DNA of 64,000 nucleotides from a virus. The notes beneath the pieces were generated by a model. That model was given only the letters and a program-made list of their open reading frames with translations. It did not search any database and was not told the DNA's origin. Both the position numbers and the translations under genes were made by a program. Shown here piece by piece: positions 5,105-64,000 of the stretch (the stretch's first letter is position 1; the number at the start of each line of letters is the position of its first letter). Location of the stretch: positions 3,494 to 67,493 of the IMG/VR virus record IMGVR_UViG_3300026512_000008; one strand, given 5' to 3'.

Positions 5105-6433
5105 ATGAAAGAAATGAACGAACAAATTTTAGAATTAGTTGAGTCAGAAAAATACGCAGCATTGACTGAAGGTGCAGAAGCATCTTATATGGGTATGATG
5201 TTAGAAAACGCAATGGACGAAGCTGAAAAAGTACTTGCAGAAGGTACAGTTGCATCAGATGTAGCTACATTCACTCCAATCATTATGCCACTTGTAAGAA
5301 GAGTTTATCCAAACCTTATTGCTAATGAACTTTTAGGTGTTCAGCCAATGGCTTTACCAACTGGTTTTATTTACGCACTTACAAACAGATACTTAGGTAA
5401 CAAAAAAGATGGTTCAGTTAGCCCAACTACAAAAGGTCAAATTCTTGTATTTAGCGCAAACACTCCATCAGTAGGTGATACAGTTACAGGTGTTGACGCA
5501 GCAGGCGACGAAGCAACTGCATTAGTAGCTTATGTTGAAGGTAACAAAGTATTAGTTGAAGCAGCAGGTAACTTTTTAGTACCAGCAGGTGATATTTCAG
5601 CAGTATTTACAAATGAATTAGCATTTGGTCAAGTTCTTGTTAATTACACAGGTCCAATGACAACAGCAGAAGCAGAAGTTATCGGCGAAGGTATGAATGA
5701 AGTTGGTTTTGAAATTGCTCGTAAATCAGTTGAAGCAAAATCAAGAGCTCTTAAAGGTAGATATTCAGTAGAAATGTACCAAGATTTAAAATCACAACAC
5801 GGTTTAGCTGCTGATGATGAAATTATGTCATTAATTTCTTACGAAGTACAAGCAGAACTAGATAGAGAAATTGTAAACTTTGTTAACACAAACGCAACTC
5901 CAGTTGCTAACTCTTTTGCACCACAAAATGCAGATGGTAGATGGGAAATTGAAAAATATAGAACAGAAGTTATTAAAATGAAAAAAGAGTCTACTCAAAT
6001 CGGTCTTGATACAAAAAGAGGTCAAGGTAACATTGTTGTTGTTTCTCCAAATGTTGTTACAATGATGGAAGAAGTTGGTTCATTTAAAACTGCTACAAAA
6101 GACAATGGAACTACTCAACCAGTATCTGGTGGTGTTGCAGGAATCTTTGATAACAAATTCAAAGTAGTAGTTGATCAATTCGCTACAACAGACTATGCAA
6201 CAGTTATGTACAAAGGTGCTGATAGAAGAGATTCAATGGGATTCTTTGCTCCATATGTTCCACTTAGTTTCACAAAAGTTACAAACTTTGAAACTGGACA
6301 ACCAGCAATAATTGCTAAAACTAGATACGCTCTAGAAACTATTCCAGGTGTTGAAACTCCTATCAGTAATGATAGAGCAGCTAAATACGCTAGAAACTTT
6401 GGTATTGATTTTACAGGAACTGCACTTCAGTAA
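5105..6433 (+). CDS. gp23: Major capsid protein, T4 gp23-like
   Basis: PLVRRVYPNLIA, GVQPM, AKSRALKG.YSVE..QDLKSQHGL and FFAPYVPL motifs. Confidence 0.97.
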   Translation: MKEMNEQILELVESEKYAALTEGAEASYMGMMLENAMDEAEKVLAEGTVASDVATFTPIIMPLVRRVYPNLIANELLGVQPMALPTGFIYALTNRYLGNKKDGSVSPTTKGQILVFSANTPSVGDTVTGVDAAGDEATALVAYVEGNKVLVEAAGNFLVPAGDISAVFTNELAFGQVLVNYTGPMTTAEAEVIGEGMNEVGFEIARKSVEAKSRALKGRYSVEMYQDLKSQHGLAADDEIMSLISYEVQAELDREIVNFVNTNATPVANSFAPQNADGRWEIEKYRTEVIKMKKESTQIGLDTKRGQGNIVVVSPNVVTMMEEVGSFKTATKDNGTTQPVSGGVAGIFDNKFKVVVDQFATTDYATVMYKGADRRDSMGFFAPYVPLSFTKVTNFETGQPAIIAKTRYALETIPGVETPISNDRAAKYARNFGIDFTGTALQ

Positions 6434-6470: not shown

Positions 6471-6492
6471 TTAAGTAAACAAATGTTATAAT
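6471..6492 (+). promoter_or_regulatory. Host-RNAP-type promoter TTAAGTA-N7-GTTATAAT
   Basis: Same motif and spacing recur at 27559, 61965 and 63723. Confidence 0.7.
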
Positions 6493-6496
6493 ATAT

Positions 6497-6578
6497 TTAA
6501 TTATTTAATTGTAGATAGATGAATTCCGACCTCACTATCTATAATTAAATAATTAAAATAATTAAAAAAGAGGTCGGA
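6497..6578 (+). promoter_or_regulatory. 5' leader hairpin/pseudoknot that can occlude the endonuclease RBS
   Basis: 22-bp stem 6497-6518/6535-6556; loop TCCGACCTC (6525-6533) is complementary to GAGGTCGGA (6570-6578), which contains the SD. Confidence 0.65.
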
Positions 6579-25820: not shown

Positions 25821-27551
25821 ATGAAAATTTTAATGTTGATGTTGCTATCAATATCTATTTATGCAAAAGATTACACGCTACCTCTTTTAAACATAACTTC
25901 TTCTGCTTTTAAGAGAAACACATTATTTTATAATAAGTTAAAACAAACAGATAATAATGAACATGCTGAAAGAGTTGTCCAAATACAAGAAACAGCAGTT
26001 GGTTTTAGACAACCAATTTTTAGAGGTTTGCAAGGCGATCAAATACATTTAACAGTCGATAGTATGGATTTTACTAACTCTATGTTTAGATCTGGACCTA
26101 ATCAGTATTATTCCTTTATTCCAAATGAGTTTGTTTATCAAATCACACTAAACAAGGATATAGATGATTTAGGTAATAACTCATTTGGTGGCACAATAAA
26201 CAGAGATTTAGGGTTTTTGAGTACAAATACTAACATAATCCGGGTAGAGAACTACATTTCTGGTGGTAAAGTGTTTAGTTCTTACCAAAATAAAGATTTA
26301 AAAATAGGTGCTTTATACAAAAAGATTAATTATATTGAAACACCGAATGGTAAACAAGACCATACTAACTACAATCAAAAAGGGATTTATATTGAGAAAA
26401 ATAAGTATAAATTAATATATACTAGAAGTGATAATATTAACCGTACAGATAAGTTTTTAAAAGGCAAACCTAGAATTTATGATAAACAATATTACCTTGG
26501 TATATTTAAAGATTTTAAAGTAAACTATGATTATACAATTAAAGTTTCTTACCAAAACTTTTATGAAAATATTAATAACCCTAAAAAAGATAACAAAAGA
26601 CTTGATAAATCTAATACAAATGTGTATCAACTTCATAATGAGTATTACATTTCTGATAATTTAATTTTAACAACTAAACATAAATGGGAAAATATAGACT
26701 ATAAAAAATATGGTACTACTGAAAAGAATTATAATGTATATGATAATAGTGTTGGATTAAATTATTTTCAAAATTACGCAGACTTTAAATATAGTGTTAG
26801 TGTTAATGCTGATTATGCTACAATAGCAAATAAAGATTTTTGGAATGTTGGTGCTGGTGTAAAAGCAGAATATAATAATGTTTATATAAGTGTATCACAA
26901 GGTTACAAATATCCAACTATTTACAATCTTAATGAAGCAATTTCCGATAGTTTATATGAAATACCAAATCCAGATCTTAAAAAAGAAACAAGTATTAAAA
27001 CAGAACTAGGTTATTCAAATTCAATACAATATTTAGAATATCGTAGTACTGTTTTTTACAATCGTTTAAGTAATATGATTGTAAGAGAGAAAACAAACCA
27101 ATTATCACCAGACGGTTCCAATATGTTTAAAATAACAAATGCAAATAATGGAAACATATATGGTGTTAATACAAACTTGGTTTTTGATTATAATAATTTT
27201 ATTATAGACTTTTTTGCAGAGTACACATACGGCAAAACAAATGTTGATTATATTTCAAAATTAACTCCGTTTCGCACAGATACAAGAATAGAATATAAAT
27301 CGTTTAGTATAACACATAAATATGCAAAAAAATCTAACACTTTATCTAATGCGGATAAAAAAGACATTCGTATTAAAAATCATAATTATGGATATAACCA
27401 ATTTGATGTAAATTACATTTACTGTTTTGAAAATAAAAATACCTTAAAATTTTCTGTTAAAAATATTTTCAATAATACAGGTCGTGTTATTGGTAGTAGT
27501 AATGATTTTGAAAAAAGATATTTATATTTAACTCTAACAATTAAACTTTAA
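25821..27551 (+). CDS. TonB-dependent outer-membrane receptor
   Basis: Signal peptide; plug motif PIFRGLQG..IHLTVD..FRSGPNQY..GGTIN; PNPDLKKETS..ELG; C-terminal KNIFN...RYLYLTLTIKL. Confidence 0.85.
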   Translation: MKILMLMLLSISIYAKDYTLPLLNITSSAFKRNTLFYNKLKQTDNNEHAERVVQIQETAVGFRQPIFRGLQGDQIHLTVDSMDFTNSMFRSGPNQYYSFIPNEFVYQITLNKDIDDLGNNSFGGTINRDLGFLSTNTNIIRVENYISGGKVFSSYQNKDLKIGALYKKINYIETPNGKQDHTNYNQKGIYIEKNKYKLIYTRSDNINRTDKFLKGKPRIYDKQYYLGIFKDFKVNYDYTIKVSYQNFYENINNPKKDNKRLDKSNTNVYQLHNEYYISDNLILTTKHKWENIDYKKYGTTEKNYNVYDNSVGLNYFQNYADFKYSVSVNADYATIANKDFWNVGAGVKAEYNNVYISVSQGYKYPTIYNLNEAISDSLYEIPNPDLKKETSIKTELGYSNSIQYLEYRSTVFYNRLSNMIVREKTNQLSPDGSNMFKITNANNGNIYGVNTNLVFDYNNFIIDFFAEYTYGKTNVDYISKLTPFRTDTRIEYKSFSITHKYAKKSNTLSNADKKDIRIKNHNYGYNQFDVNYIYCFENKNTLKFSVKNIFNNTGRVIGSSNDFEKRYLYLTLTIKL

Positions 27552-28631: not shown

Positions 28632-28910
28632 ATGATTAATAAAACACTAAATAACAATTCTGCTAATAGAGTAGATAAAGTAGAAGGATTTTTATCCAAA
28701 TCAGAAAAAAATAGCACATTATTTCGTGCTTCACAAAAAATAATGGAAGCAGGAGTAGAAATGATGAAAATATCATCAAAAATGAGCGCAATTTTATTTG
28801 AAATGGGTGATCAGATGCTTAAAGAAATTGATTTAAGAGATGATAAAATGACTGATGATGATATACAAAATATAATAGATGATATTTTGTCTATTAAAAA
28901 AGGTTTATAA
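28632..28910 (+). CDS. Hypothetical helical protein
   Basis: RBS; translationally coupled to the next rSAM gene. Confidence 0.55.
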   Translation: MINKTLNNNSANRVDKVEGFLSKSEKNSTLFRASQKIMEAGVEMMKISSKMSAILFEMGDQMLKEIDLRDDKMTDDDIQNIIDDILSIKKGL

Positions 28911-30031
28911 TGAGTCAAAAAATACAAGCAAAAGGTTCATTCAATTTTGAAATTACAACTGTTACATCATGTGATATGGCTTGTACATATTGTTTTGAGG
29001 GGGAAAAAGCAGTAGATAATAAGAAAGTAAATCAACGAATACCACAATATATTAAAAAAATTAAAGAGACTTTGGAATCAGATTGGTTTAAAAAAGATTA
29101 TGAATTTTTATCTCTTGATTTTTGGGGTGGCGAACCCACTTTAAATAATTATGTTATGACTGTTTTAATTAACGAATTTAAAGATTATGATAATGTTGAT
29201 TTTCATTTATATACAAATGCTTTTAATGAAGTAACTATGCGTAAATTTATTTCTTCTATAGATCCTAGTAAATTAAGAATTCAAGTTTCATATGATGGTA
29301 GAGTTATTAATGATAAATTTAGAATAGATCATGCAGGAAAATCGACATCAGAAAAAGTATTAAGTACTTTTGATTATTTAAGTACTGTTGGGTTAAAACA
29401 TTTATCAATGAAAAGTACATTACCTCTTTCCGAGTGTCATCATATGGTAGAAGTATGGAAAGAGTTCCGTGAGTTAAATAAAAAATATAATAGTAATAAT
29501 GTACTTATTAGATACGCACCAACACTGGATTATCATACAAAATTACAAGATCCAAATACATACTTACCATATTTTGAACAAGCAATTAAAGAAATTAGTG
29601 CTATGGAAATTGATTTTTTTAGAGAAAAAGGTTATTTTCTTTTTACTTGGTACAGAGGGTCTGATAAAAGATTTACTTGTACTGCAGGTAAAAATATGAC
29701 TATTCTTGACACAGACGGGAATTTTTATCCTTGTCATGGAGCATTATATTTAGAAGACAAAGAAGAAGCACATAAACTTTTATCACTTAATGATAATATA
29801 AATAACTTAAATAGAGATAAGTTTATTAATATGATTAGTAAAACAAACGAAATATGTGAAAGTTGTGTAGCAACTACTTGTTTTGTTTGTCCAACATCAT
29901 CTTATGCAGCATCACAAAAAGAATCTTATGAAGATAGATGGTTAGATAATCAAGTTCACGGATTATGTGGATATTATCAAGCATTTGGTAAGGTTGATAG
30001 AGCATTCTCAAAACTTTTAGGAGGTAACTAA
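28910..30031 (+). CDS. Radical SAM/SPASM protein
   Basis: CDMACTYC, FWGGEPTL; CTAG...YPCHG...CESC....C..CP. Confidence 0.9.
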   Translation: MSQKIQAKGSFNFEITTVTSCDMACTYCFEGEKAVDNKKVNQRIPQYIKKIKETLESDWFKKDYEFLSLDFWGGEPTLNNYVMTVLINEFKDYDNVDFHLYTNAFNEVTMRKFISSIDPSKLRIQVSYDGRVINDKFRIDHAGKSTSEKVLSTFDYLSTVGLKHLSMKSTLPLSECHHMVEVWKEFRELNKKYNSNNVLIRYAPTLDYHTKLQDPNTYLPYFEQAIKEISAMEIDFFREKGYFLFTWYRGSDKRFTCTAGKNMTILDTDGNFYPCHGALYLEDKEEAHKLLSLNDNINNLNRDKFINMISKTNEICESCVATTCFVCPTSSYAASQKESYEDRWLDNQVHGLCGYYQAFGKVDRAFSKLLGGN

Positions 30032-59764: not shown

Positions 59765-60049
59765 ATGAAAAAGGTGTTTTTAACTTTACTATTTGTTGCA
59801 ATAATTATATTACCTGTAGATGCGAAAACATCAGAAATACGCACATATAACTATATGGAAACTTATTTTCACGATAATAATATAAATATTAAAACCAAAA
59901 CTTATAAAGGTTGGATTAGAGTTTTATTGTCTGGTACTAAAAGAAAACAATATCATTTAAATTTGTCAAAAAAACAAATTAATATATATACACACAAATT
60001 AAAAATACTACAAAATAAAAAAATAATATATAAAAATAATAATATATAA
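59765..60049 (+). CDS. Small secreted basic protein
   Basis: Sec signal MKKVFLTLLFVAIIILPVDA; TATAAATA at 59738. Confidence 0.65.
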   Translation: MKKVFLTLLFVAIIILPVDAKTSEIRTYNYMETYFHDNNINIKTKTYKGWIRVLLSGTKRKQYHLNLSKKQINIYTHKLKILQNKKIIYKNNNI

Positions 60050-60107
60050 TATTTTTTAATTAAAAAGTATTTAAGTACAGTTTGTGTAAAATTTTACAAG
60101 TAATTAA

Positions 60108-60304
60108 AATTAAAAATTAATAAAGTTTGTGTTATAATAACAGTAATTAAAAATTAATACTTAAATAATTTTACAATTAATTAAAAATTAATAAAGTTTG
60201 TGTTATAATAACAGTAATTAAAAATTAATACTTAAATAATTTTACAATTAATTAAAAATTAATAAAGTTTGTGTTATAATAACAGTAATTAAAAATTAAT
60301 ACTT
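60108..60304. repeat. 71-bp tandem repeat x about 2.8, each unit with GTGTTATAAT
   Basis: GTTATAAT at 60131, 60202 and 60273. Confidence 0.9.
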
Positions 60305-60334
60305 TGTTTTTAGCTAAGTGTTACAATTTGTTAC

Positions 60335-60510
60335 AAAATAAAAAGAATTTGTAAATTTATACTATTTTAAGTAAAAATTAACACTTTTTTAGTTATAATA
60401 ATATAAATAAAACAATAAAAATAAAAATAAAAAGAATTTGTAAATTTATACTATTTTAAGTAAAAATTAACACTTTTTTAGTTATAATAATATAAATAAA
60501 ACAATAAAAA
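60335..60510. repeat. 89-bp tandem repeat x2 with TTAAG-N6-TTAAC-N11-TATAAT and TATAAATA
   Basis: GTTATAAT at 60392 and 60481. Confidence 0.9.
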
Positions 60511-60525
60511 CAAAAGGAATTTAAA

Positions 60526-60651
60526 ATGTTTACATTAAATATAAAACATATTATTGTTACAAATACGAATAAACAGATTAGTATTCCAACAACTGAACAT
60601 AATGAGAATTATGAACAGTATCAAAATCAAAGAGATACCTTAAAGATTTAA
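60526..60651 (+). CDS. 41-aa leader peptide of tRNA array 1
   Basis: AAGGA RBS; MFTLNIKHIIVTNTNKQISIPTTEHNENYEQYQNQRDTLKI. Confidence 0.7.
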   Translation: MFTLNIKHIIVTNTNKQISIPTTEHNENYEQYQNQRDTLKI

Positions 60652-60691
60652 TTAAAGCGCTTTTAAAAGAGAGTTTTAATTAACTCTTTTT
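60642..60691 (+). promoter_or_regulatory. Attenuator-like alternative hairpins
   Basis: 60648-60658 pairs with 60673-60683 (covers the stop codon), versus 60667-60675 with 60682-60690 ending in a U-run. Confidence 0.6.
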
Positions 60692-60808
60692 GTCTAGCGA
60701 AATTCCTCTAGAACTTGTTCAAGTTCTAAAATTTCCTAAAAACAAAATTAGTTATAATGTTAAAATATACAGAAATGTATAATGTGGTTACTAAGTTATC
60801 CACCATAT

Positions 60809-60883
60809 TGTCTTGTAGCTCAAAGGAAGAGCATTCGGCTGATAACCGGAAGGTTGAGATTTCAAAATTCTCCAAGACAACCA
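60809..60883 (+). tRNA. tRNA-Ile(GAT)
   Basis: Cloverleaf; loop CT-GAT-AA; CCA. Confidence 0.9.
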
Positions 60884-60898
60884 AAAAAAAAAATAAAT

Positions 60899-60975
60899 GC
60901 CGGTTTAGCTCAGATGGTTAGAGCGACTGCCTTGTAAGCAGTAGGCCTGGGGTTCGAATCCTCAAACCGGCACCA
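60899..60975 (+). tRNA. tRNA-Thr(TGT)
   Basis: ACTGC-CTTGTAA-GCAGT; CCA. Confidence 0.95.
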
Positions 60976-60976
60976 T

Positions 60977-61050
60977 GACGCTATAGATTATTGGTAGATC
61001 ACCGTACTTTCAATTCGGTAGGCCGGGGTCAGTACCCGGTAGCGTCACCA
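60977..61050 (+). tRNA. tRNA-Glu(TTC)
   Basis: GACGCTA/TAGCGTC acceptor; loop CT-TTC-AA; atypical T loop. Confidence 0.8.
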
Positions 61051-61053
61051 TTT

Positions 61054-61141
61054 GGATAAGAGGCAACTATTGGTTGGTTGCACCAGACTGTAAATCTGTT
61101 CTCAAAAAGCGTTCGCGGTTCGATTCCGTGCTTATCCACCA
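61054..61141 (+). tRNA. tRNA-Tyr(GTA)
   Basis: Loop CT-GTA-AA; long variable region; CCA. Confidence 0.85.
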
Positions 61142-61146
61142 TATAT

Positions 61147-61220
61147 TGAGGTATAGTATAATGGCATTACATCCGACTTTGACTCGGATAACGGGGGATC
61201 GTTACCTCCTACCTCAACCA
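61147..61220 (+). tRNA. tRNA-Gln(TTG)
   Basis: U1:A72; TCCGA-CTTTGAC-TCGGA; CCA. Confidence 0.9.
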
Positions 61221-61242
61221 TAATAAATGTTAAATATTTTGC

Positions 61243-61315
61243 TCTGCTATAACACAACTGGTAGTGTATCGAGCTGTTAACTCGAAGGTTCCTGGATCGT
61301 ACCCAGGTAGCAGAG
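61243..61315 (+). tRNA. tRNA-Asn(GTT), CCA not encoded
   Basis: TCGAG-CTGTTAA-CTCGA; ends G then CAA. Confidence 0.85.
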
Positions 61316-61364
61316 CAAAGTATTTTCGTAAATATTAAAAATACTAAAAACAAAAGGAAACACT

Positions 61365-61409
61365 ATGAAGAGTGAAAAAATTATAGTCGTTGCTTGGGAG
61401 TTTGATTAA
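61365..61409 (+). CDS. 14-aa leader peptide MKSEKIIVVAWEFD upstream of tRNA-Lys
   Basis: CAAAAGGAAA RBS like the other leaders; 3' half lies within an alternative hairpin. Confidence 0.65.
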   Translation: MKSEKIIVVAWEFD

Positions 61410-61454
61410 CTCTTAGGATGCGACTTAAAATAAAGAACAAATAATTTTTAAGTT

Positions 61455-61532
61455 GCATCCGTGAGTAGAATTGGTTAGTACACTCCGCTTTTAACGGAGA
61501 CTATGTGGGTTCGAGTCCCACCGGATGCACCA
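61455..61532 (+). tRNA. tRNA-Lys(TTT)
   Basis: GCATCCG/CGGATGC; CTCCG-CTTTTAA-CGGAG; CCA. Confidence 0.9.
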
Positions 61533-61536
61533 ATAA

Positions 61537-61629
61537 GCAGGTGTTACTCTAGTTGGTCGACGAGACCGGACTTTTAATCCGGCGTGGATAATATCCCCAT
61601 CGTAGGTTCAAATCCTACCATCTGTACCA
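61537..61629 (+). tRNA. tRNA with TTT (Lys) anticodon and Leu-like long variable arm
   Basis: CCGGA-CTTTTAA-TCCGG; 93 nt; CCA. Confidence 0.8.
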
Positions 61630-61696
61630 AAAAAAAATATATCTAGCATAAAATGTAAGTGAACTTAATAACAGTCACCTATCACTTACATTTTAT

Positions 61697-61771
61697 GGTG
61701 AATATAGTCTAATGGTAAGACGCCAGTCTGTGAAACTGGTTATTCCGGATCATTACCGGATATTCACACCA
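61697..61771 (+). tRNA. tRNA-His(GTG) with G-1 and A73
   Basis: CCAGT-CTGTGAA-ACTGG; CCA. Confidence 0.85.
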
Positions 61772-61777
61772 AAAAAT

Positions 61778-61864
61778 AGTAGCGTGCCTGAGTGGTCCAA
61801 AGGAGCCGGCTGATAACCGGTGACATTTATTGTCTCGTCAGTTCGAATCTGACCGTTACTACCA
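61778..61864 (+). tRNA. tRNA with GAT (Ile) anticodon and long variable arm
   Basis: GCCGG-CTGATAA-CCGGT; GACA/TGTC variable stem; CCA. Confidence 0.8.
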
Positions 61865-61872
61865 AAAAATAT

Positions 61873-61946
61873 GCCGAATTAGTATAATAGAATTATTCTG
61901 CTTTTGTAATGCAGAGACAGGGGAGCGTAACCTCTATTCGGCACCA
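61873..61946 (+). tRNA. tRNA-Thr(TGT), divergent second copy
   Basis: Loop TT-TGT-AA; atypical D and T loops; CCA. Confidence 0.75.
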
Positions 61947-61964
61947 TAAAATTTATAAAAAAAT

Positions 61965-61986
61965 TTAAGTAAATGTTTGTTATAAT
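61965..61986 (+). promoter_or_regulatory. Promoter TTAAGTA-N7-GTTATAAT for tRNA array 2
   Basis: Recurrent motif. Confidence 0.7.
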
Positions 61987-62108
61987 ACAACATAAACAAA
62001 AAAAGGTTAAAAAGAATATACAAATTCTTTTAAGAATATAGTGTTTTTAACACTTTTTATATTTCAAAAATATAAATAAAACAATAAATAAACAAAAAGG
62101 AAATACAG

Positions 62109-62252
62109 ATGTCAAACATATTAAACAACTCATTATCAGTTATGTTACCTGTCGGATCGTTTAGACCTATGGCATCTGTGGCCTTTATACCTGCTATATC
62201 TAGTCTGGATTGTGATTTGGGTATATGGGGAAACTTACCAAGCATTAATTAA
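62109..62252 (+). CDS. 47-aa leader peptide of tRNA array 2
   Basis: AAGGA RBS; MSNILNNSLSVMLPVGSFRPMASVAFIPAISSLDCDLGIWGNLPSIN. Confidence 0.7.
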   Translation: MSNILNNSLSVMLPVGSFRPMASVAFIPAISSLDCDLGIWGNLPSIN

Positions 62253-62300
62253 AACTTTTAAATTCATTTTTAAGAGCTTTAATTAGTTCTTAAAATGTTT
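62246..62300 (+). promoter_or_regulatory. Attenuator-like alternative hairpins
   Basis: 62246-62262 pairs with 62269-62285 (covers the stop codon), versus 62268-62278 with 62285-62295 (TTAATT loop). Confidence 0.6.
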
Positions 62301-62408
62301 CAAAAAGAGTTTTAACTTCGTTTACTTCTTAGAAAGTACAACAAAAACAAAACTTCAAAAACTTTTTACTAACTATAATTTTTATAGAATACTAATGTAT
62401 TCTTAAAT

Positions 62409-62483
62409 GGTCCTATAGCTCAGAGGCAGAGCGTTCCGTTGTCTGCGGAAATGTCGAGATTTCAAAATTCTCTAGGATCGCCA
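62409..62483 (+). tRNA. tRNA-Asp(GTC)
   Basis: TTCCG-TTGTCTG-CGGAA; G73; CCA. Confidence 0.85.
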
Positions 62484-62488
62484 AAAAT

Positions 62489-62584
62489 GGAGACATCAAC
62501 CGAAATTGGTATCGGCCTGGTCTTGAAAACCAGTCATCGGATGAGTAATTCGATGTGTCGGTTCGACCCCGACTGTCTCCTCCA
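62489..62584 (+). tRNA. tRNA-Ser(TGA)
   Basis: CTGGT-CTTGAAA-ACCAG; long variable arm. Confidence 0.9.
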
Positions 62585-62616
62585 GATTTTTGTCAATGAA
62601 GACATAAAAATAATAT

Positions 62617-62691
62617 ATGGGTGTAGGAAAATGGAAATCCGCTACTTTTGGGAAGTAGAGATAGTGAGATCGATACTCACCACCCGTACCA
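62617..62691 (+). tRNA. tRNA-Pro(TGG)
   Basis: CTACT-TTTGGGA-AGTAG; CCA. Confidence 0.85.
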
Positions 62692-62696
62692 TTAAT

Positions 62697-62772
62697 GGAC
62701 AAGTAGCACAATTGGTAGTGCCATCCGCTCATAACGGATAGGTTGCTGGTTCAAATCCAGTCTTGTCCACCA
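62697..62772 (+). tRNA. tRNA-CAT (Ile2 or elongator Met)
   Basis: ATCCG-CTCATAA-CGGAT; paired G1:C72 so not an initiator; C4:G69 favours Ile2. Confidence 0.85.
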
Positions 62773-62787
62773 TTAAGTAAAAATTAT

Positions 62788-62864
62788 GGGGTATAGCTGT
62801 GGGCAGCAGATTTCTTTTGCAAGGAGATTGTTTTAAGTCGGTTCGATTCCGATGTACTCCACCA
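62788..62864 (+). tRNA. tRNA-Ala(TGC), atypical
   Basis: G3:U70; loop TT-TGC-AA; irregular D arm. Confidence 0.7.
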
Positions 62865-62880
62865 TAAAATGTCAAAAAAT

Positions 62881-62955
62881 GGGCTTATAGTATAATTGGG
62901 AATACGCTACCCTTGCAAGGTAGTATTCGGGGTTCAAGTCCCCGTAGGTCCACCA
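62881..62955 (+). tRNA. tRNA-Ala(TGC)
   Basis: G3:U70; CTACC-CTTGCAA-GGTAG. Confidence 0.92.
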
Positions 62956-62974
62956 TAAAGTAAAAAAAATATAT

Positions 62975-63048
62975 GCCCGATTAGTTCAATGGCAGAACAC
63001 TTCGCTTACATCGAAGAGACGAATGATCGATACATTCATTGGGTACCA
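62975..63048 (+). tRNA. tRNA-Val(TAC)
   Basis: CTTCG-CTTACAT-CGAAG; CCA. Confidence 0.88.
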
Positions 63049-63057
63049 AAAATAAAT

Positions 63058-63133
63058 GTTCACTTAGCTAAGATGGTCTAAGCGTCCGGTTGAAGCCCGG
63101 AAGATCCAGGATCGTTACCTGGAGTGAACACCA
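63058..63133 (+). tRNA. tRNA-Phe(GAA)
   Basis: TCCGG-TTGAAGC-CCGGA; CCA. Confidence 0.88.
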
Positions 63134-63155
63134 TTATTACAAATGTTAAAAATAC

Positions 63156-63231
63156 GCGGGTATGACAGAATGACATTATGTGCTAGTCTTCCAAACTAGA
63201 TACCCCGGTTTGATTCCGGGTACCCGCTCCA
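63156..63231 (+). tRNA. tRNA-Gly(TCC)
   Basis: GCGGGTA acceptor, U73; CTAGT-CTTCCAA-ACTAG. Confidence 0.9.
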
Positions 63232-63246
63232 AATAAAGGTAATAAA

Positions 63247-63426
63247 ATGAAAGATGAAATGAACAGGCCAAAAGGTAAGTACACTGAAACTTTTACAAAA
63301 GTTTATAAAGGTGTAACATACACAATGACAGAAACAACTGTTATCGGAAGAGATTCAGAAATTATGAATTTTCAAAGAGAATATAGTCCAGGCATTAAAT
63401 ACCCAATAACATTTGAAGAAATGTAA
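63247..63426 (+). CDS. 59-aa hypothetical protein within the tRNA array
   Basis: AAGGT RBS; MKDEMNRPKGKYTETF...FEEM. Confidence 0.55.
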   Translation: MKDEMNRPKGKYTETFTKVYKGVTYTMTETTVIGRDSEIMNFQREYSPGIKYPITFEEM

Positions 63427-63444
63427 AACACTTAAAAAAAGTAC

Positions 63445-63521
63445 GCTCCTATATGCCAATCGGTAGAGCAGTCCGGCTTAGACCCGGTGCAGTCTCAGTT
63501 CGACTCTGAGTGGGAGTACCA
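63445..63521 (+). tRNA. tRNA-Leu(TAG) with short variable loop
   Basis: CCGG-CTTAGAC-CCGG; 77 nt; CCA. Confidence 0.8.
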
Positions 63522-63534
63522 AAAAATTATAAAA

Positions 63535-63626
63535 GCGGACATGGCGAAGCTGGTTGAAACGCAACGGACTTAAAATCCGTCACAGATAAGTTCACATCGT
63601 AGGTTCAACTCCTACTGTCCGCACCA
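63535..63626 (+). tRNA. tRNA-Leu(TAA)
   Basis: ACGGA-CTTAAAA-TCCGT; long variable region. Confidence 0.9.
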
Positions 63627-63631
63627 AATAT

Positions 63632-63707
63632 AGGTCGTTGGTGTAATTGGTAACATTACGGATTCCAAATCCGTCAGATGCAAGTTCAAATCTTGTGCGA
63701 CCTGCCA
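63632..63707 (+). tRNA. tRNA-Trp(CCA)
   Basis: ACGGA-TTCCAAA-TCCGT; G73. Confidence 0.9.
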
Positions 63708-63722
63708 AAAGTTAATAAGTTT

Positions 63723-63744
63723 TTAAGTAAACTTTAGTTATAAT
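63723..63744 (+). promoter_or_regulatory. Promoter TTAAGTA-N7-GTTATAAT
   Basis: Recurrent motif. Confidence 0.7.
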
Positions 63745-63793
63745 AGTAACATAACAAAAGACACTTTATAAATAAGTGTAATTTTAATAAATA

Positions 63794-63878
63794 TGCCGTC
63801 GTGTATCAACTGGATGATAAACGGTCTTCTAAACCGTAGCGTAAGCTTATGTGGGTTCGAGTCCCTCCGGCGGTACCA
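63794..63878 (+). tRNA. tRNA-Arg(TCT) with extended variable arm
   Basis: ACGGT-CTTCTAA-ACCGT; AGC-GTAA-GCT variable hairpin. Confidence 0.85.
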
Positions 63879-63879
63879 T

Positions 63880-63964
63880 GGAGACGACACCTAAGGTAGG
63901 TAAAGTGATTGCTAATCACTGGCTGGTAACACAGTAGTGGGTTCGATTCTCACCGTCTCCTCCA
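63880..63964 (+). tRNA. tRNA-Ser(GCT)
   Basis: AGTGA-TTGCTAA-TCACT; long variable arm. Confidence 0.88.
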
Positions 63965-64000
63965 TTTGTATATTATAAGGCTACTTTCAACAGCAAAGTA

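What the first reader, a model, noticed from the sequence alone, without database searches (positions are those of the whole stretch)
61350..61532. Translation-coupled folding switch that can sequester the tRNA-Lys(UUU) acceptor stem
Seen: leader MKSEKIIVVAWEFD (61365-61409) has Lys codons at positions 2 (AAG) and 5 (AAA), then Ile-Ile; the tRNAs that follow are Lys, Lys, His, Ile, Thr. Segment B GGATGCGACTTAAAA (61416-61430) forms 15 bp (one G-U) with TTTTAAGTTGCATCC (61446-61460), which includes the first six nt of tRNA-Lys; ACTC/GAGT (61409-61412/61463-61466) can extend it. Alternatively the leader's coding 3' half AGTCGT-TG-CTTGGGAGTT (61385-61402) pairs with AACTCTTAGG-AT-GCGACT (61408-61425), capturing B and freeing the tRNA. 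Inference: full translation (Lys-tRNA plentiful) melts that hairpin so B misfolds the tRNA; stalling at Lys codons lets tRNA-Lys fold and mature. Established: tRNA-Lys(UUU) is the target of PrrC and PARIS. This would be an on-demand counter-defence acting at tRNA folding or processing. The GAGTT-TGATT-AACTCTT core resembles the hairpins of the two long leaders.
Basis: partly seen in the sequence, partly recalled or inferred. Interest (0 to 1): 0.88.

Follow-up and report, generated by a model that had tools for sequence, protein, structure and literature searches.

The report
Mini-gene RNA switch clamping phage tRNA-Lys
Just before its lysine tRNA gene, this uncultured T4-like phage and at least nine related sequences keep a tiny reading frame wired to an RNA that can fold two ways, one of which ties up the tRNA's first bases, so tRNA maturation is probably linked to how ribosomes read the mini-gene.

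Summary
The 14-codon frame (61365-61409), the 15-bp hairpin 61416-61430/61446-61460 covering tRNA-Lys nt 1-6, and the competing hairpin 61385-61425 are all there. The 15-bp hairpin is one of four uninterrupted hairpins of at least 15 bp in the window; 20 shuffles gave none.

Nine other uncultured-phage loci carry the same cassette before a tRNA(UUU). The leader-embedded helix pairs in 60 of 60 cells. The tRNA-clamping helix pairs in 89% of 146 cells, and 7 of its 15 pairs show compensatory changes. Both exceeded all 500 shuffles. Codon 8, clamp arm B and the tRNA leader co-vary three ways.

I found no terminator, no Rfam family and no paper describing this.

Best reading (0.45): a ribosome-responsive switch gates tRNA-Lys folding and RNase P cleavage. 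A ribosome waiting at the rare AAG codon 2 frees the tRNA; elongation re-clamps it. Translation, lysine sensing and any counter-defence role are inferred, not shown. Similar clamps without a frame precede tRNA-His, which keeps an RNA-only processing role alive.

This scan has noted the same kind of lysine mini-gene switch on other phage DNA (unchecked notes).

The parts
61352..61359 (+). Shine-Dalgarno-like AAAAGGAA, 6-7 nt before the ATG
   Evidence: Read. A purine-rich AGGA/GAGG/AGAG motif stands at similar spacing in all 10 loci. It was forced by the search pattern only.
61365..61409 (+). Mini-ORF of 14 codons (MKSEKIIVVAWEFD), Lys AAG at codon 2 and AAA at codon 5
   Evidence: Homologous frames of 10-15 codons occur in 9 other loci. 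Their stop always lies at +31 to +48, inside the inner hairpin.
61363..61386 (+). H0: weak start-codon hairpin, CTATGA (61363-61368) with TTATAG (61381-61386)
   Evidence: RNAalifold consensus pairs cols 19-24 with cols 37-42, and 60 of 60 cells pair, one of them G-U. There is no covariation, and most of these positions were forced by my search patterns.
61385..61390 (+). Segment 1 (AGTCGT: last nt of codon 7, codon 8, first two nt of codon 9), the 5' strand of anti-clamp helix H1
   Evidence: It pairs with 61420-61425. 60 of 60 cells pair, 2 pairs have changes on both sides, and 0 of 500 shuffles reach the score.
61393..61417 (+). Hin: inner hairpin CTTGGGAGTT / loop TGATT / AACTCTTAGG, holding the stop codon
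   Evidence: All 10 loci have a 7-10 bp stem here with a wholly different sequence. RNAalifold pairs cols 49-55 with cols 76-88, with many compensatory changes.
61416..61430 (+). Segment B (GGATGCGACTTAAAA): the shared strand. 61420-61425 pairs with segment 1 (H1); all of B pairs with 61446-61460 (H2)
61431..61445 (+). Loop of the clamp hairpin H2, with the conserved TAAATAAAG-like start
   Evidence: Alignment A1. In a near relative (run X5), three substitutions and three 1-nt insertions fall in this loop.
61446..61460 (+). Segment 3: nine leader nt (-9 to -1) plus tRNA-Lys nt 1-6, the 3' strand of clamp H2. It spans the RNase P site
   Evidence: 89% of 146 cells pair, 7 of 15 pairs have changes on both sides, and 0 of 500 shuffles reach the score; slid controls pair at 31-52%.
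61455..61532 (+). tRNA-Lys(UUU) with encoded CCA
   Evidence: ARAGORN; Rfam tRNA model at 57.7 bits.

Best explanation
The stretch is a conserved, bistable cis-acting RNA placed in front of the phage's tRNA-Lys(UUU).

The two folds:
- Clamped: segment B pairs with the last 9 leader bases and the first 3-7 bases of the tRNA (helix H2). This buries the RNase P site and blocks the acceptor stem. A weak hairpin (H0) covers the AUG of the mini-ORF.
- Released: B is captured by a segment inside the mini-ORF (codons 7-9, helix H1, stacked on a constant inner hairpin). The leader is then single-stranded and the tRNA can fold.

Proposed control (inferred):
- A ribosome sitting at the start with the rare AAG Lys codon 2 in its A site opens H0, leaves segment 1 free, and so favours H1 and tRNA release.
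- A ribosome that elongates over codons 7-10 removes H1, and B re-clamps.
- Slow reading of Lys codons would therefore raise maturation of the phage tRNA-Lys, and fast reading would lower it.

Shown: the helices, their mutual exclusion, their conservation and their covariation.
Inferred: that the frame is translated, that RNase P is affected, the sign of the control, and that lysine tRNA supply is what is sensed.
For: Homologous loci:
- Nine other loci share the cassette directly before a tRNA(UUU). One came from synteny (Tyr-Gln-Asn-spacer-Lys-Lys in L039/L055).
- The others came from pattern scans: 2 of 16 hits, 4 of 13, and 7 of 24, two of them repeats of known contigs.

Covariation:
- H1: 60 of 60 cells pair. 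Codon 8 is GTC, GAT or GAC, and B carries its reverse complement GAC, ATC or GTC in 10 of 10 loci. This changes Val to Asp, so RNA pairing outranks the peptide.
- H2: 89% of 146 cells pair, 7 of 15 pairs are compensatory, and 0 of 500 shuffles reach the score. tRNA nt 1-3 pair in 30 of 30 cells.
- RNAalifold, given no structure, returns H0 + inner hairpin + H2, with 12 of 24 pairs compensatory.

Energies: H1 plus inner stem is -12.3 to -19.5 kcal/mol, and H2 is -10.6 to -21.4.

Cassette versus tRNA body:
- Cassettes are 61-86% identical, while the tRNA bodies behind them are 53-89% identical.
- The bodies include a class-II-like tRNA(UUU) in L088.

Specificity: among 117 tRNAs in the 10 loci, helices of at least 8 bp through position +1 occur at 10 tRNAs: seven first tRNA-Lys, two tRNA-His and one tRNA-Pro.

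Ribosome-mask model, 9 loci, mean acceptor-stem probability:
- no ribosome 0.26
- codon-2 stall 0.53 (acceptor beats clamp in 6 of 9 loci)
- codon-5 stall 0.25
- P site at codon 9, 0.15

Codon 2 is AAG in 10 of 10 loci, 7 of them found with patterns allowing AAA. AAG is 138 of 1587 Lys codons (8.7%) in the window's long ORFs.

Context: longer leaders in the same arrays are written in the amino acids of the tRNAs that follow. Counts are 32 of 40 and 35 of 46 in the window, and 32 of 35 in L055 (P about 1e-4, 1e-4 and 2e-12).

A review of bacterial RNase P (passages read) reports two things (PMC10731613):
- A stem-loop near the start of a leader slows RNase P about tenfold.
Against: - No direct evidence of translation. 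Two Lys in 13 residues is what a proteome with 8.6% Lys gives.
- ATG, codon 2 (AAR or AAG), codons 5-7 and GT of codon 9 were forced by my patterns in 8 of 10 loci. Their conservation is shown free of that bias only in L055, and partly in L054.
- The clamp state is predicted to win in all ribosome states in 3 of 9 loci (L095, L071, L092). It is favoured by up to 12 kcal/mol in whole-precursor folds. These models omit tRNA tertiary energy.
- A stall at Lys codon 5 does not release the tRNA in the model.
- H0 has no covariation.
- tRNA-His in the window, L054 and L071 has clamp-like hairpins of 16-19 bp without any frame. A clamp alone therefore needs no ribosome.
- The three codon-8 classes may reflect as few as two events.
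Confidence: 0.45

Rival explanations
1. RNA-only processing element. The hairpins set the order or rate of RNase P or other nuclease cuts in the polycistronic tRNA transcript, or insulate neighbouring tRNAs while they fold. The frame is incidental, or serves only to load a ribosome, and nothing senses lysine.
For: - tRNA-His has 16-19 bp hairpins reaching or crossing its 5' end, with no frame, in the window, L054 and L071.
- E. coli polycistronic pre-tRNAs use flanking stem-loops to slow RNase P and enforce 3'-to-5' processing (PMC10731613, passages read).
- The clamp is the predicted ground state without ribosomes.
- There is no Lys enrichment in the frame.
Against: - SD, ATG and the first 9 codons are kept at fixed spacing in 10 of 10 loci.
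- The anti-clamp strand lies inside the frame and co-varies with B.
- The stop always falls inside the inner hairpin and before B.
- The rare AAG is kept at codon 2.
- Codon-matched long leaders occur in the same arrays.
Confidence: 0.27
2. Translation-coupled, but with another logic. Either the sign is trp-like (a ribosome stalled at Lys5-Ile6-Ile7 masks segment 1, so stalling clamps the tRNA), or the switch reports general ribosome traffic or infection stage rather than lysine tRNA supply.
For: - Codons 5-7 lie just upstream of, and overlap, segment 1, as regulatory codons do in trpL (own knowledge).
- In the mask model a codon-5 stall gives acceptor probability 0.25 against 0.26 with no ribosome, and a ribosome at codon 9 gives 0.15.
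Against: - Clamping the tRNA when it is scarce makes no regulatory sense.
- The first Lys codon met is codon 2, where a stall releases the tRNA in 6 of 9 loci.
Confidence: 0.12
3. The frame encodes a functional micropeptide, and the downstream helices merely regulate or terminate its expression.
For: The SD and the MK..KII..V start are conserved.
Against: - Length varies from 10 to 15 residues and the C-terminal parts are unrelated.
- Codon 8 flips Val/Asp in step with RNA pairing.
- Codons 3-4 vary freely.
Confidence: 0.05
4. Classical transcription attenuator: one of the hairpins is an intrinsic terminator.
For: The long leaders of the same arrays do end in hairpin-plus-T-run signals (sequence read). 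The window's inner hairpin resembles the one after leader 1.
Against: - No terminator-like site was found between 61317 and 61460. The two sites found in 60000-64000 lie inside tRNAs.
- Neither H1 nor H2 is followed by a T run in any of the 10 loci.
Confidence: 0.03
5. Relic of a local inverted duplication or a decayed tRNA 3' end, without function.
For: B (GGATGC) equals the tRNA's own 3' acceptor strand in the window.
Against: - B tracks changes in the tRNA's 5' strand across loci, through G-U pairs or compensatory pairs. It is not a copy of the 3' strand in L055.
- The cassette is as conserved as the tRNAs.
- No tRNA model hit lies in the spacer at E up to 1.
Confidence: 0.03

Closest known systems
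Leader-peptide (ribosome-mediated) transcription attenuators: trpL, hisL, pheL, thrL, and pheM of pheST (own knowledge; pheL paper PMC3082878 seen only as a search listing)
   Same: A short SD-led frame, a chain of mutually exclusive helices whose first strand lies in the frame, and ribosome position deciding which helix forms.
   Different: The last helix is not a terminator but the acceptor stem of a tRNA. The output would be tRNA folding and processing rather than read-through. There are only two cognate codons and no U-tract.
Translational attenuation of ermC and cat leaders (own knowledge)
   Same: A ribosome paused in a short leader remodels a downstream hairpin after transcription.
   Different: Those expose a ribosome-binding site and sense a drug. 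Here the freed element is a tRNA 5' end.
Inhibitory 5'-leader stem-loops in E. coli polycistronic pre-tRNAs such as valV-valW (review PMC10731613, passages read)
   Same: Stable structure at or near the RNase P site that slows cleavage.
   Different: Those are static and not linked to a reading frame. Here an alternative, co-varying anti-clamp helix lies inside a frame.
Phage tRNA-Lys as counter-defence: the T5 tRNA-Lys variant against PARIS/AriB (PMC11464382, abstract read); phage tRNAs predicted insensitive to PrrC-type nucleases (PMC10264068, abstract read)
   Same: A phage-borne tRNA-Lys, the species attacked by known anticodon nucleases.
   Different: Those papers concern tRNA sequence variants, not control of maturation. 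No nuclease or host is known here.
T-box riboswitches (own knowledge)
   Same: A cis RNA that reports tRNA status.
   Different: T-boxes bind uncharged tRNA directly, lack a frame and control synthetase or transporter genes. No Rfam hit lies in the spacer.

Membership tests
Leader-peptide transcription attenuator (trpL type) | Short translated leader frame with a ribosome-binding site | tested here: inconclusive
   SD-like motif, ATG and a 10-15 codon frame occur in 10 of 10 loci. Translation itself is not shown.
Leader-peptide transcription attenuator (trpL type) | Regulatory codons cognate to the controlled product, enriched in the leader | tested here: inconclusive
   Lys sits at codons 2 and 5 in 10 of 10 loci, but those positions were largely forced by the search patterns. 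Two of 13 residues is not an enrichment over 8.6% Lys. The rare AAG at codon 2 is kept.
Leader-peptide transcription attenuator (trpL type) | Overlapping, mutually exclusive helices, the first strand lying in the frame | tested here: met
   H1 (61385-90 with 61420-25) and H2 (61416-30 with 61446-60) share 61420-25. Both co-vary.
Leader-peptide transcription attenuator (trpL type) | Final helix is an intrinsic terminator (G+C-rich stem followed by a U tract) | tested here: not met
   No terminator-like site lies in 61317-61460. No T run follows H1 or H2 in the 10 loci.
RNase P-inhibitory leader structure in pre-tRNA | Stable helix at or across the -1/+1 cleavage site | tested here: met
   H2 includes leader nt -1 to -9 and tRNA nt 1-3 in 30 of 30 cells, at -10.6 to -21.4 kcal/mol.
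RNase P-inhibitory leader structure in pre-tRNA | Measured reduction of the RNase P cleavage rate | not testable with these tools
   Needs an enzyme assay.
Any curated Rfam family (including T-box and known leaders) | Covariance-model match in the spacer 61317-61454 | tested here: not met
   cmscan of 60000-64000 at E up to 1 gave 31 matches, none in the spacer.

The most novel reading that the evidence does not exclude
The cassette is an on-demand counter-defence. When a host anticodon nuclease of the PrrC or PARIS kind destroys cellular tRNA-Lys(UUU), ribosomes park on the wobble-read AAG at codon 2 of the mini-gene. The anti-clamp helix then forms, and the phage's own tRNA-Lys, otherwise held as an uncleavable and unprocessed precursor, is released within seconds without new transcription. 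That would be a sensor-actuator built entirely of RNA plus the ribosome, acting at the level of tRNA folding.
Probability: 0.12. Interest if true: 0.92.

Novelty: new variant of a known kind. Interest (0 to 1): 0.78.

Why it matters
If the model holds, ribosome-mediated attenuation has a previously undescribed output: the folding and RNase P processing of a tRNA, rather than transcription termination or translation initiation. It would show that phages regulate their tRNA cargo according to decoding demand. It would also give a compact, testable RNA device (about 110 nt plus a tRNA) for studying co-transcriptional folding, ribosome helicase geometry and RNase P substrate choice. It bears on why phages carry tRNA-Lys, the species attacked by known anticodon nucleases. 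My four literature searches found no account of such control. The library lacks most subscription-journal papers, and supplements were closed.

Tried and rejected
Searches that led nowhere:
- Neighbour proteins as bait. window:58376-59749 gave 17 pattern hits and 0 relatives. window:55166-57157 gave one weak hit of 43% identity over 44 residues.
- An exact 26-nt tRNA-Lys 3' pattern gave 0 hits in viral contigs.
- blastn of the cassette against cultured phages gave no match. The wider array query matched only single tRNAs, at most 4% cover in the listed rows.
- A B-loop pattern free of any leader constraint gave 41 hits. Only the 4 cassettes already known had a tRNA-Lys; the other 37 had no tRNA within 110 nt.
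- A pattern leaving codons 2-5 free gave 84 hits. Only the 4 known loci lie near a tRNA; the other 80 do not. So I found no member lacking the Lys codons, but the patterns are narrow.
- Genome contigs gave 10 hits and 0 cassettes; all continue as open frames with no cassette features.

Other gaps and rejected readings:
- The about 90-110 nt gaps in L069 were checked for analogous mini-cassettes before other tRNAs. There are none. By eye most hold tRNA-like sequences ending in CCA that ARAGORN missed.
- Promoter reading. One sigma-70-like match lies at 61402-61431 (9 of 12). Its -35 part lies in a loop that is not conserved in the other loci, so I rejected it.

Reads:
- All four runs were Logan contigs, which cannot show RNA ends, strand or level.
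- A contig of the RNA-library run X7 (record 25, depth 2.1) bridges 61345-61534 with two differences (A61375G, T61382C). DNA may be present in such a library, so I do not count this as proof of transcription.
- Parts of the stretch without cover in X7 and X2 say nothing.
- Run X5 record 20 (61232-61631) differs by 12 letters, of which 11 are listed. None of the 11 lies in the H1, inner-hairpin or H2 stems; 3 substitutions and 3 insertions lie in the H2 loop. This is a single near relative and a weak hint only.

Not done: no covariance model was built, and no protein structure or complex job was relevant.

Full report
WHAT THE WINDOW IS. The window is most of a 67.5-kb IMG/VR virus record estimated 35% complete. 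It encodes a T4-type gp23 major capsid protein (Pfam E = 1.7e-97) and a tail sheath. G+C is 22-37%. From 60809 to the contig end it carries 23 ARAGORN tRNAs and further Rfam-only tRNAs. The finding lies in the 138-nt spacer between tRNA-Asn (ends 61316) and tRNA-Lys(UUU) (61455-61532).

OBSERVATION.
- An AAGGAA motif is followed by ATG at 61365.
- The 14-codon frame is MKSEKIIVVAWEFD, with AAG at codon 2 and AAA at codon 5.
- Segment B (61416-61430) forms 15 bp, one of them G-U, with 61446-61460. The last six bases of that arm are tRNA nt 1-6.
- The alternative hairpin 61385-61402/61408-61425 folds at -19.5 kcal/mol.

The region folds better than all 200 shuffles (z = -3.74). Uninterrupted hairpins of at least 15 bp occur at only four places in the 64 kb. 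This one alone has at least 5 G-C pairs, and 20 dinucleotide shuffles produced none. Looser inverted repeats are frequent in this AT-rich DNA (61 pairs), so the case rests on comparison.

RELATED LOCI. Capsid-based search gave 28 related records. One of them (G022 = L039/L055, capsid 51% identical) has the syntenic order Tyr-Gln-Asn-128 nt-Lys-Lys, with 66% DNA identity across the spacer.

Three pattern scans then added loci:
- 2 cassettes among 16 hits
- 4 among 13 hits
- 7 among 24 hits, two of them the same contigs as viral loci

In all there are 10 distinct loci: the window, L055, L054, L069, L071, L088, L092, L095, L080 (tRNA cut by the contig end) and L096. Every other hit was the 5' end of an ordinary gene. 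The patterns forced ATG, codon 2 (AAR or AAG), codons 5-7 and part of codons 8-9. Conservation at those positions is therefore largely by construction. Everything downstream of +27 and upstream of -3 was free.

ANATOMY SHARED BY ALL TEN:
- an SD-like motif
- ATG AAG nnn nnn AAA ATY ATA GNN GT.
- a frame of 10-15 codons whose stop (+31 to +48) always falls in the 5' arm or loop of an inner hairpin (Hin, 7-10 bp)
- a 2x2 internal loop
- a 6-bp outer helix H1 between A-GNN-GT (codons 7-9) and GC-NN-CT in segment B
- a conserved TAAATAAAG-like loop
- a 3' arm that pairs with B (helix H2) and runs 3-7 nt into a tRNA with anticodon UUU

H1 and H2 share six bases of B and cannot coexist. A weak hairpin H0 (CTATGA with TYATAG) covers the AUG and overlaps H1 by two bases.

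COVARIATION.
- H1: 60 of 60 cells pair, two pairs change on both sides (9 cells), and 0 of 500 shuffles reach the score. Slid registers pair at 17-65%. Codon 8 is GTC (4 loci), GAT (5) or GAC (1). B carries GAC, ATC or GTC accordingly. The tRNA leader carries GTT or GTC, GAT, or GAC. This is a three-way match in 10 of 10 loci that swaps Val for Asp, so pairing outranks peptide sequence.
- H2: 89% of 146 cells pair, 7 of 15 pairs change on both sides, and 0 of 500 shuffles reach the score. Slid registers pair at 31-52%. tRNA nt 1-3 pair in 30 of 30 cells, with a compensatory change at nt 3 in 2 loci. Nt 4, 5 and 6 pair in 8, 6 and 8 of 10.
- Hin has wholly different sequences in different loci, yet pairs in all ten.
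- RNAalifold, given only the MAFFT alignment, returns H0 + Hin + H2, with 12 of 24 pairs compensatory.

The cassette is as conserved as the tRNAs behind it: 61-86% against 53-89% identity. It precedes several unrelated tRNA(UUU) bodies, including a 95-nt class-II-like one in L088. L055 and L096 share an identical leader half but have different tRNAs, and both keep H2.

ENERGETICS AND THE RIBOSOME MODEL. H1 plus Hin is -12.3 to -19.5 kcal/mol and H2 is -10.6 to -21.4. In whole-precursor folds, the clamp state minus the folded-tRNA state ranges from +0.6 (window) to -12.3 kcal/mol. The nearest-neighbour model omits tRNA tertiary energy, so a near-balanced switch is plausible but not proven.

I then masked the bases a ribosome would occupy and computed pair probabilities for the 9 loci with a complete tRNA. 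Mean acceptor-stem probability was:
- no ribosome: 0.26
- P site on AUG with Lys codon 2 awaited: 0.53 (acceptor beats clamp in 6 of 9 loci)
- codon 5 awaited: 0.25
- P site on codon 9: 0.15
- at the stop: 0.27

In three loci (L095, L071, L092) the clamp wins in every state.

The design is therefore internally consistent with this logic: a ribosome waiting at codon 2 releases the tRNA, and elongation or absence of a ribosome clamps it. It is not consistent with codon 5 acting as a releasing sensor.

Codon 2 is AAG in 10 of 10 loci, 7 of them found with patterns that allowed AAA. AAG makes up only 138 of 1587 Lys codons in the window's 56 long ORFs. AAG is read by wobble by a UUU anticodon (own knowledge).

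CONTEXT.
- Longer leaders in the same arrays are written in the amino acids of the tRNAs that follow. Window leader 60526-60651 scores 32 of 40. Window leader 62109-62252 scores 35 of 46. The L055 leader scores 32 of 35 against Glu-Ile-Ala-Pro-Ile-Phe-Ala-Thr-Pro. Binomial P is about 1e-4, 1e-4 and 2e-12 against the window's proteome. This makes decoding-coupled control of these arrays credible in general.
- Against a lysine-specific reading, helices of at least 8 bp through position +1 occur at 10 of 117 tRNAs in the ten loci. Seven are the first tRNA-Lys. The others are tRNA-His in L054 and L071 (17-19 bp) and one tRNA-Pro.
- The window's tRNA-His has a 16-bp hairpin ending at -1. None of these His hairpins has a frame.
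- Clamps can therefore exist without ribosomes. An RNA-only processing role, as in E. coli polycistronic pre-tRNAs where leader stem-loops slow RNase P (PMC10731613, passages read), remains the main rival.

WHAT IT IS NOT.
- No terminator-like site lies in the spacer.
- No Rfam family matches it at E up to 1.
- No cultured-phage match was found.
- No member was found in 185,579 prokaryote species genomes with the leader pattern (0 of 10 hits).

READS. Runs labelled hydrothermal vent metagenome hold the stretch; one of them may be its source. A contig from an RNA library bridges leader, hairpins and tRNA (61345-61534). A near relative differs in the H2 loop but not in the stems. Both are weak hints only.

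LITERATURE AND EARLIER NOTES.
- Four full-text searches found no description of leader-frame control of tRNA genes or tRNA maturation. Supplements were closed, and most subscription journals are not in the library.
- By their abstracts, AriB of PARIS cleaves host tRNA-Lys and T5 escapes with a tRNA-Lys variant (PMC11464382).
- Also by abstract, phage tRNAs are proposed to evade PrrC-type nucleases (PMC10264068).
- That PrrC targets tRNA-Lys is recalled knowledge.
- This scan's notebook holds unchecked notes of the same kind of lysine mini-gene switch in other phage genomes, and of codon-matched leaders before phage tRNA arrays. I used them as leads only.

VERDICT. My estimates:
- a conserved, selected, bistable RNA element in front of phage tRNA-Lys: about 0.9
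- the two folds gate RNase P and tRNA folding: about 0.65
- ribosomes on the mini-frame decide between them: about 0.5-0.55
- lysine-tRNA supply is the signal, with release on a codon-2 stall: about 0.35-0.45
- it serves as counter-defence against anticodon nucleases: about 0.12

Noticed in passing
window 61646-61697; L054 (reverse-complement orientation) about 6476-6520; L071 (reverse-complement orientation) about 1266-1310: tRNA-His is preceded by a long hairpin. In the window it is 16 bp and ends at -1. In L054 and L071 it is 17-19 bp and runs 5-7 nt into the tRNA. None has a reading frame. This may be a second, ribosome-free kind of 5' clamp.
   Followed up: partly
window 61537-61629; L088 12986-13080: A 93-95 nt tRNA with a long variable arm (class-II-like body) carries anticodon UUU. 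In L088 the lysine cassette sits directly before it.
   Followed up: partly
window 61778-61864: An 87-nt tRNA with anticodon GAU (Ile). Its length suggests a long variable arm, though I did not inspect the fold.
   Followed up: no
window 60526-60651 and 62109-62252; L039 minus strand about 1280-1170: Longer leader frames are composed mostly of the amino acids whose tRNAs follow: 32 of 40, 35 of 46 and 32 of 35. The first is followed by a hairpin plus T run.
   Followed up: partly
window 60110-60280: Three tandem promoter-like sites (TTAAAA, 17 nt, TG-n-TATAAT; 10 of 12 each) recur every 71 bp upstream of the tRNA arrays.
   Followed up: no
L054 (reverse-complement orientation) 5711-5795: ARAGORN calls a tRNA with anticodon UUA (reads stop codon TAA), 129 nt after the two tRNA-Lys genes.
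   Followed up: no
L069 841-933, 1629-1728, 1885-1967, 2691-2784: Gaps of 83-100 nt in the tRNA array hold tRNA-like sequences ending in CCA that ARAGORN did not call.
   Followed up: no
window 25821-27551: A phage ORF matches the TonB-dependent receptor beta-barrel (Pfam E = 5.9e-10). A radical-SAM ORF lies at 28910-30031.
   Followed up: no
window 61403-61417 versus 60667-60691: By eye, the window's inner hairpin (GAGTT-TGATT-AACTCTT) closely resembles the terminator-like hairpin after leader 1. The other nine loci have different inner hairpins.
   Followed up: partly
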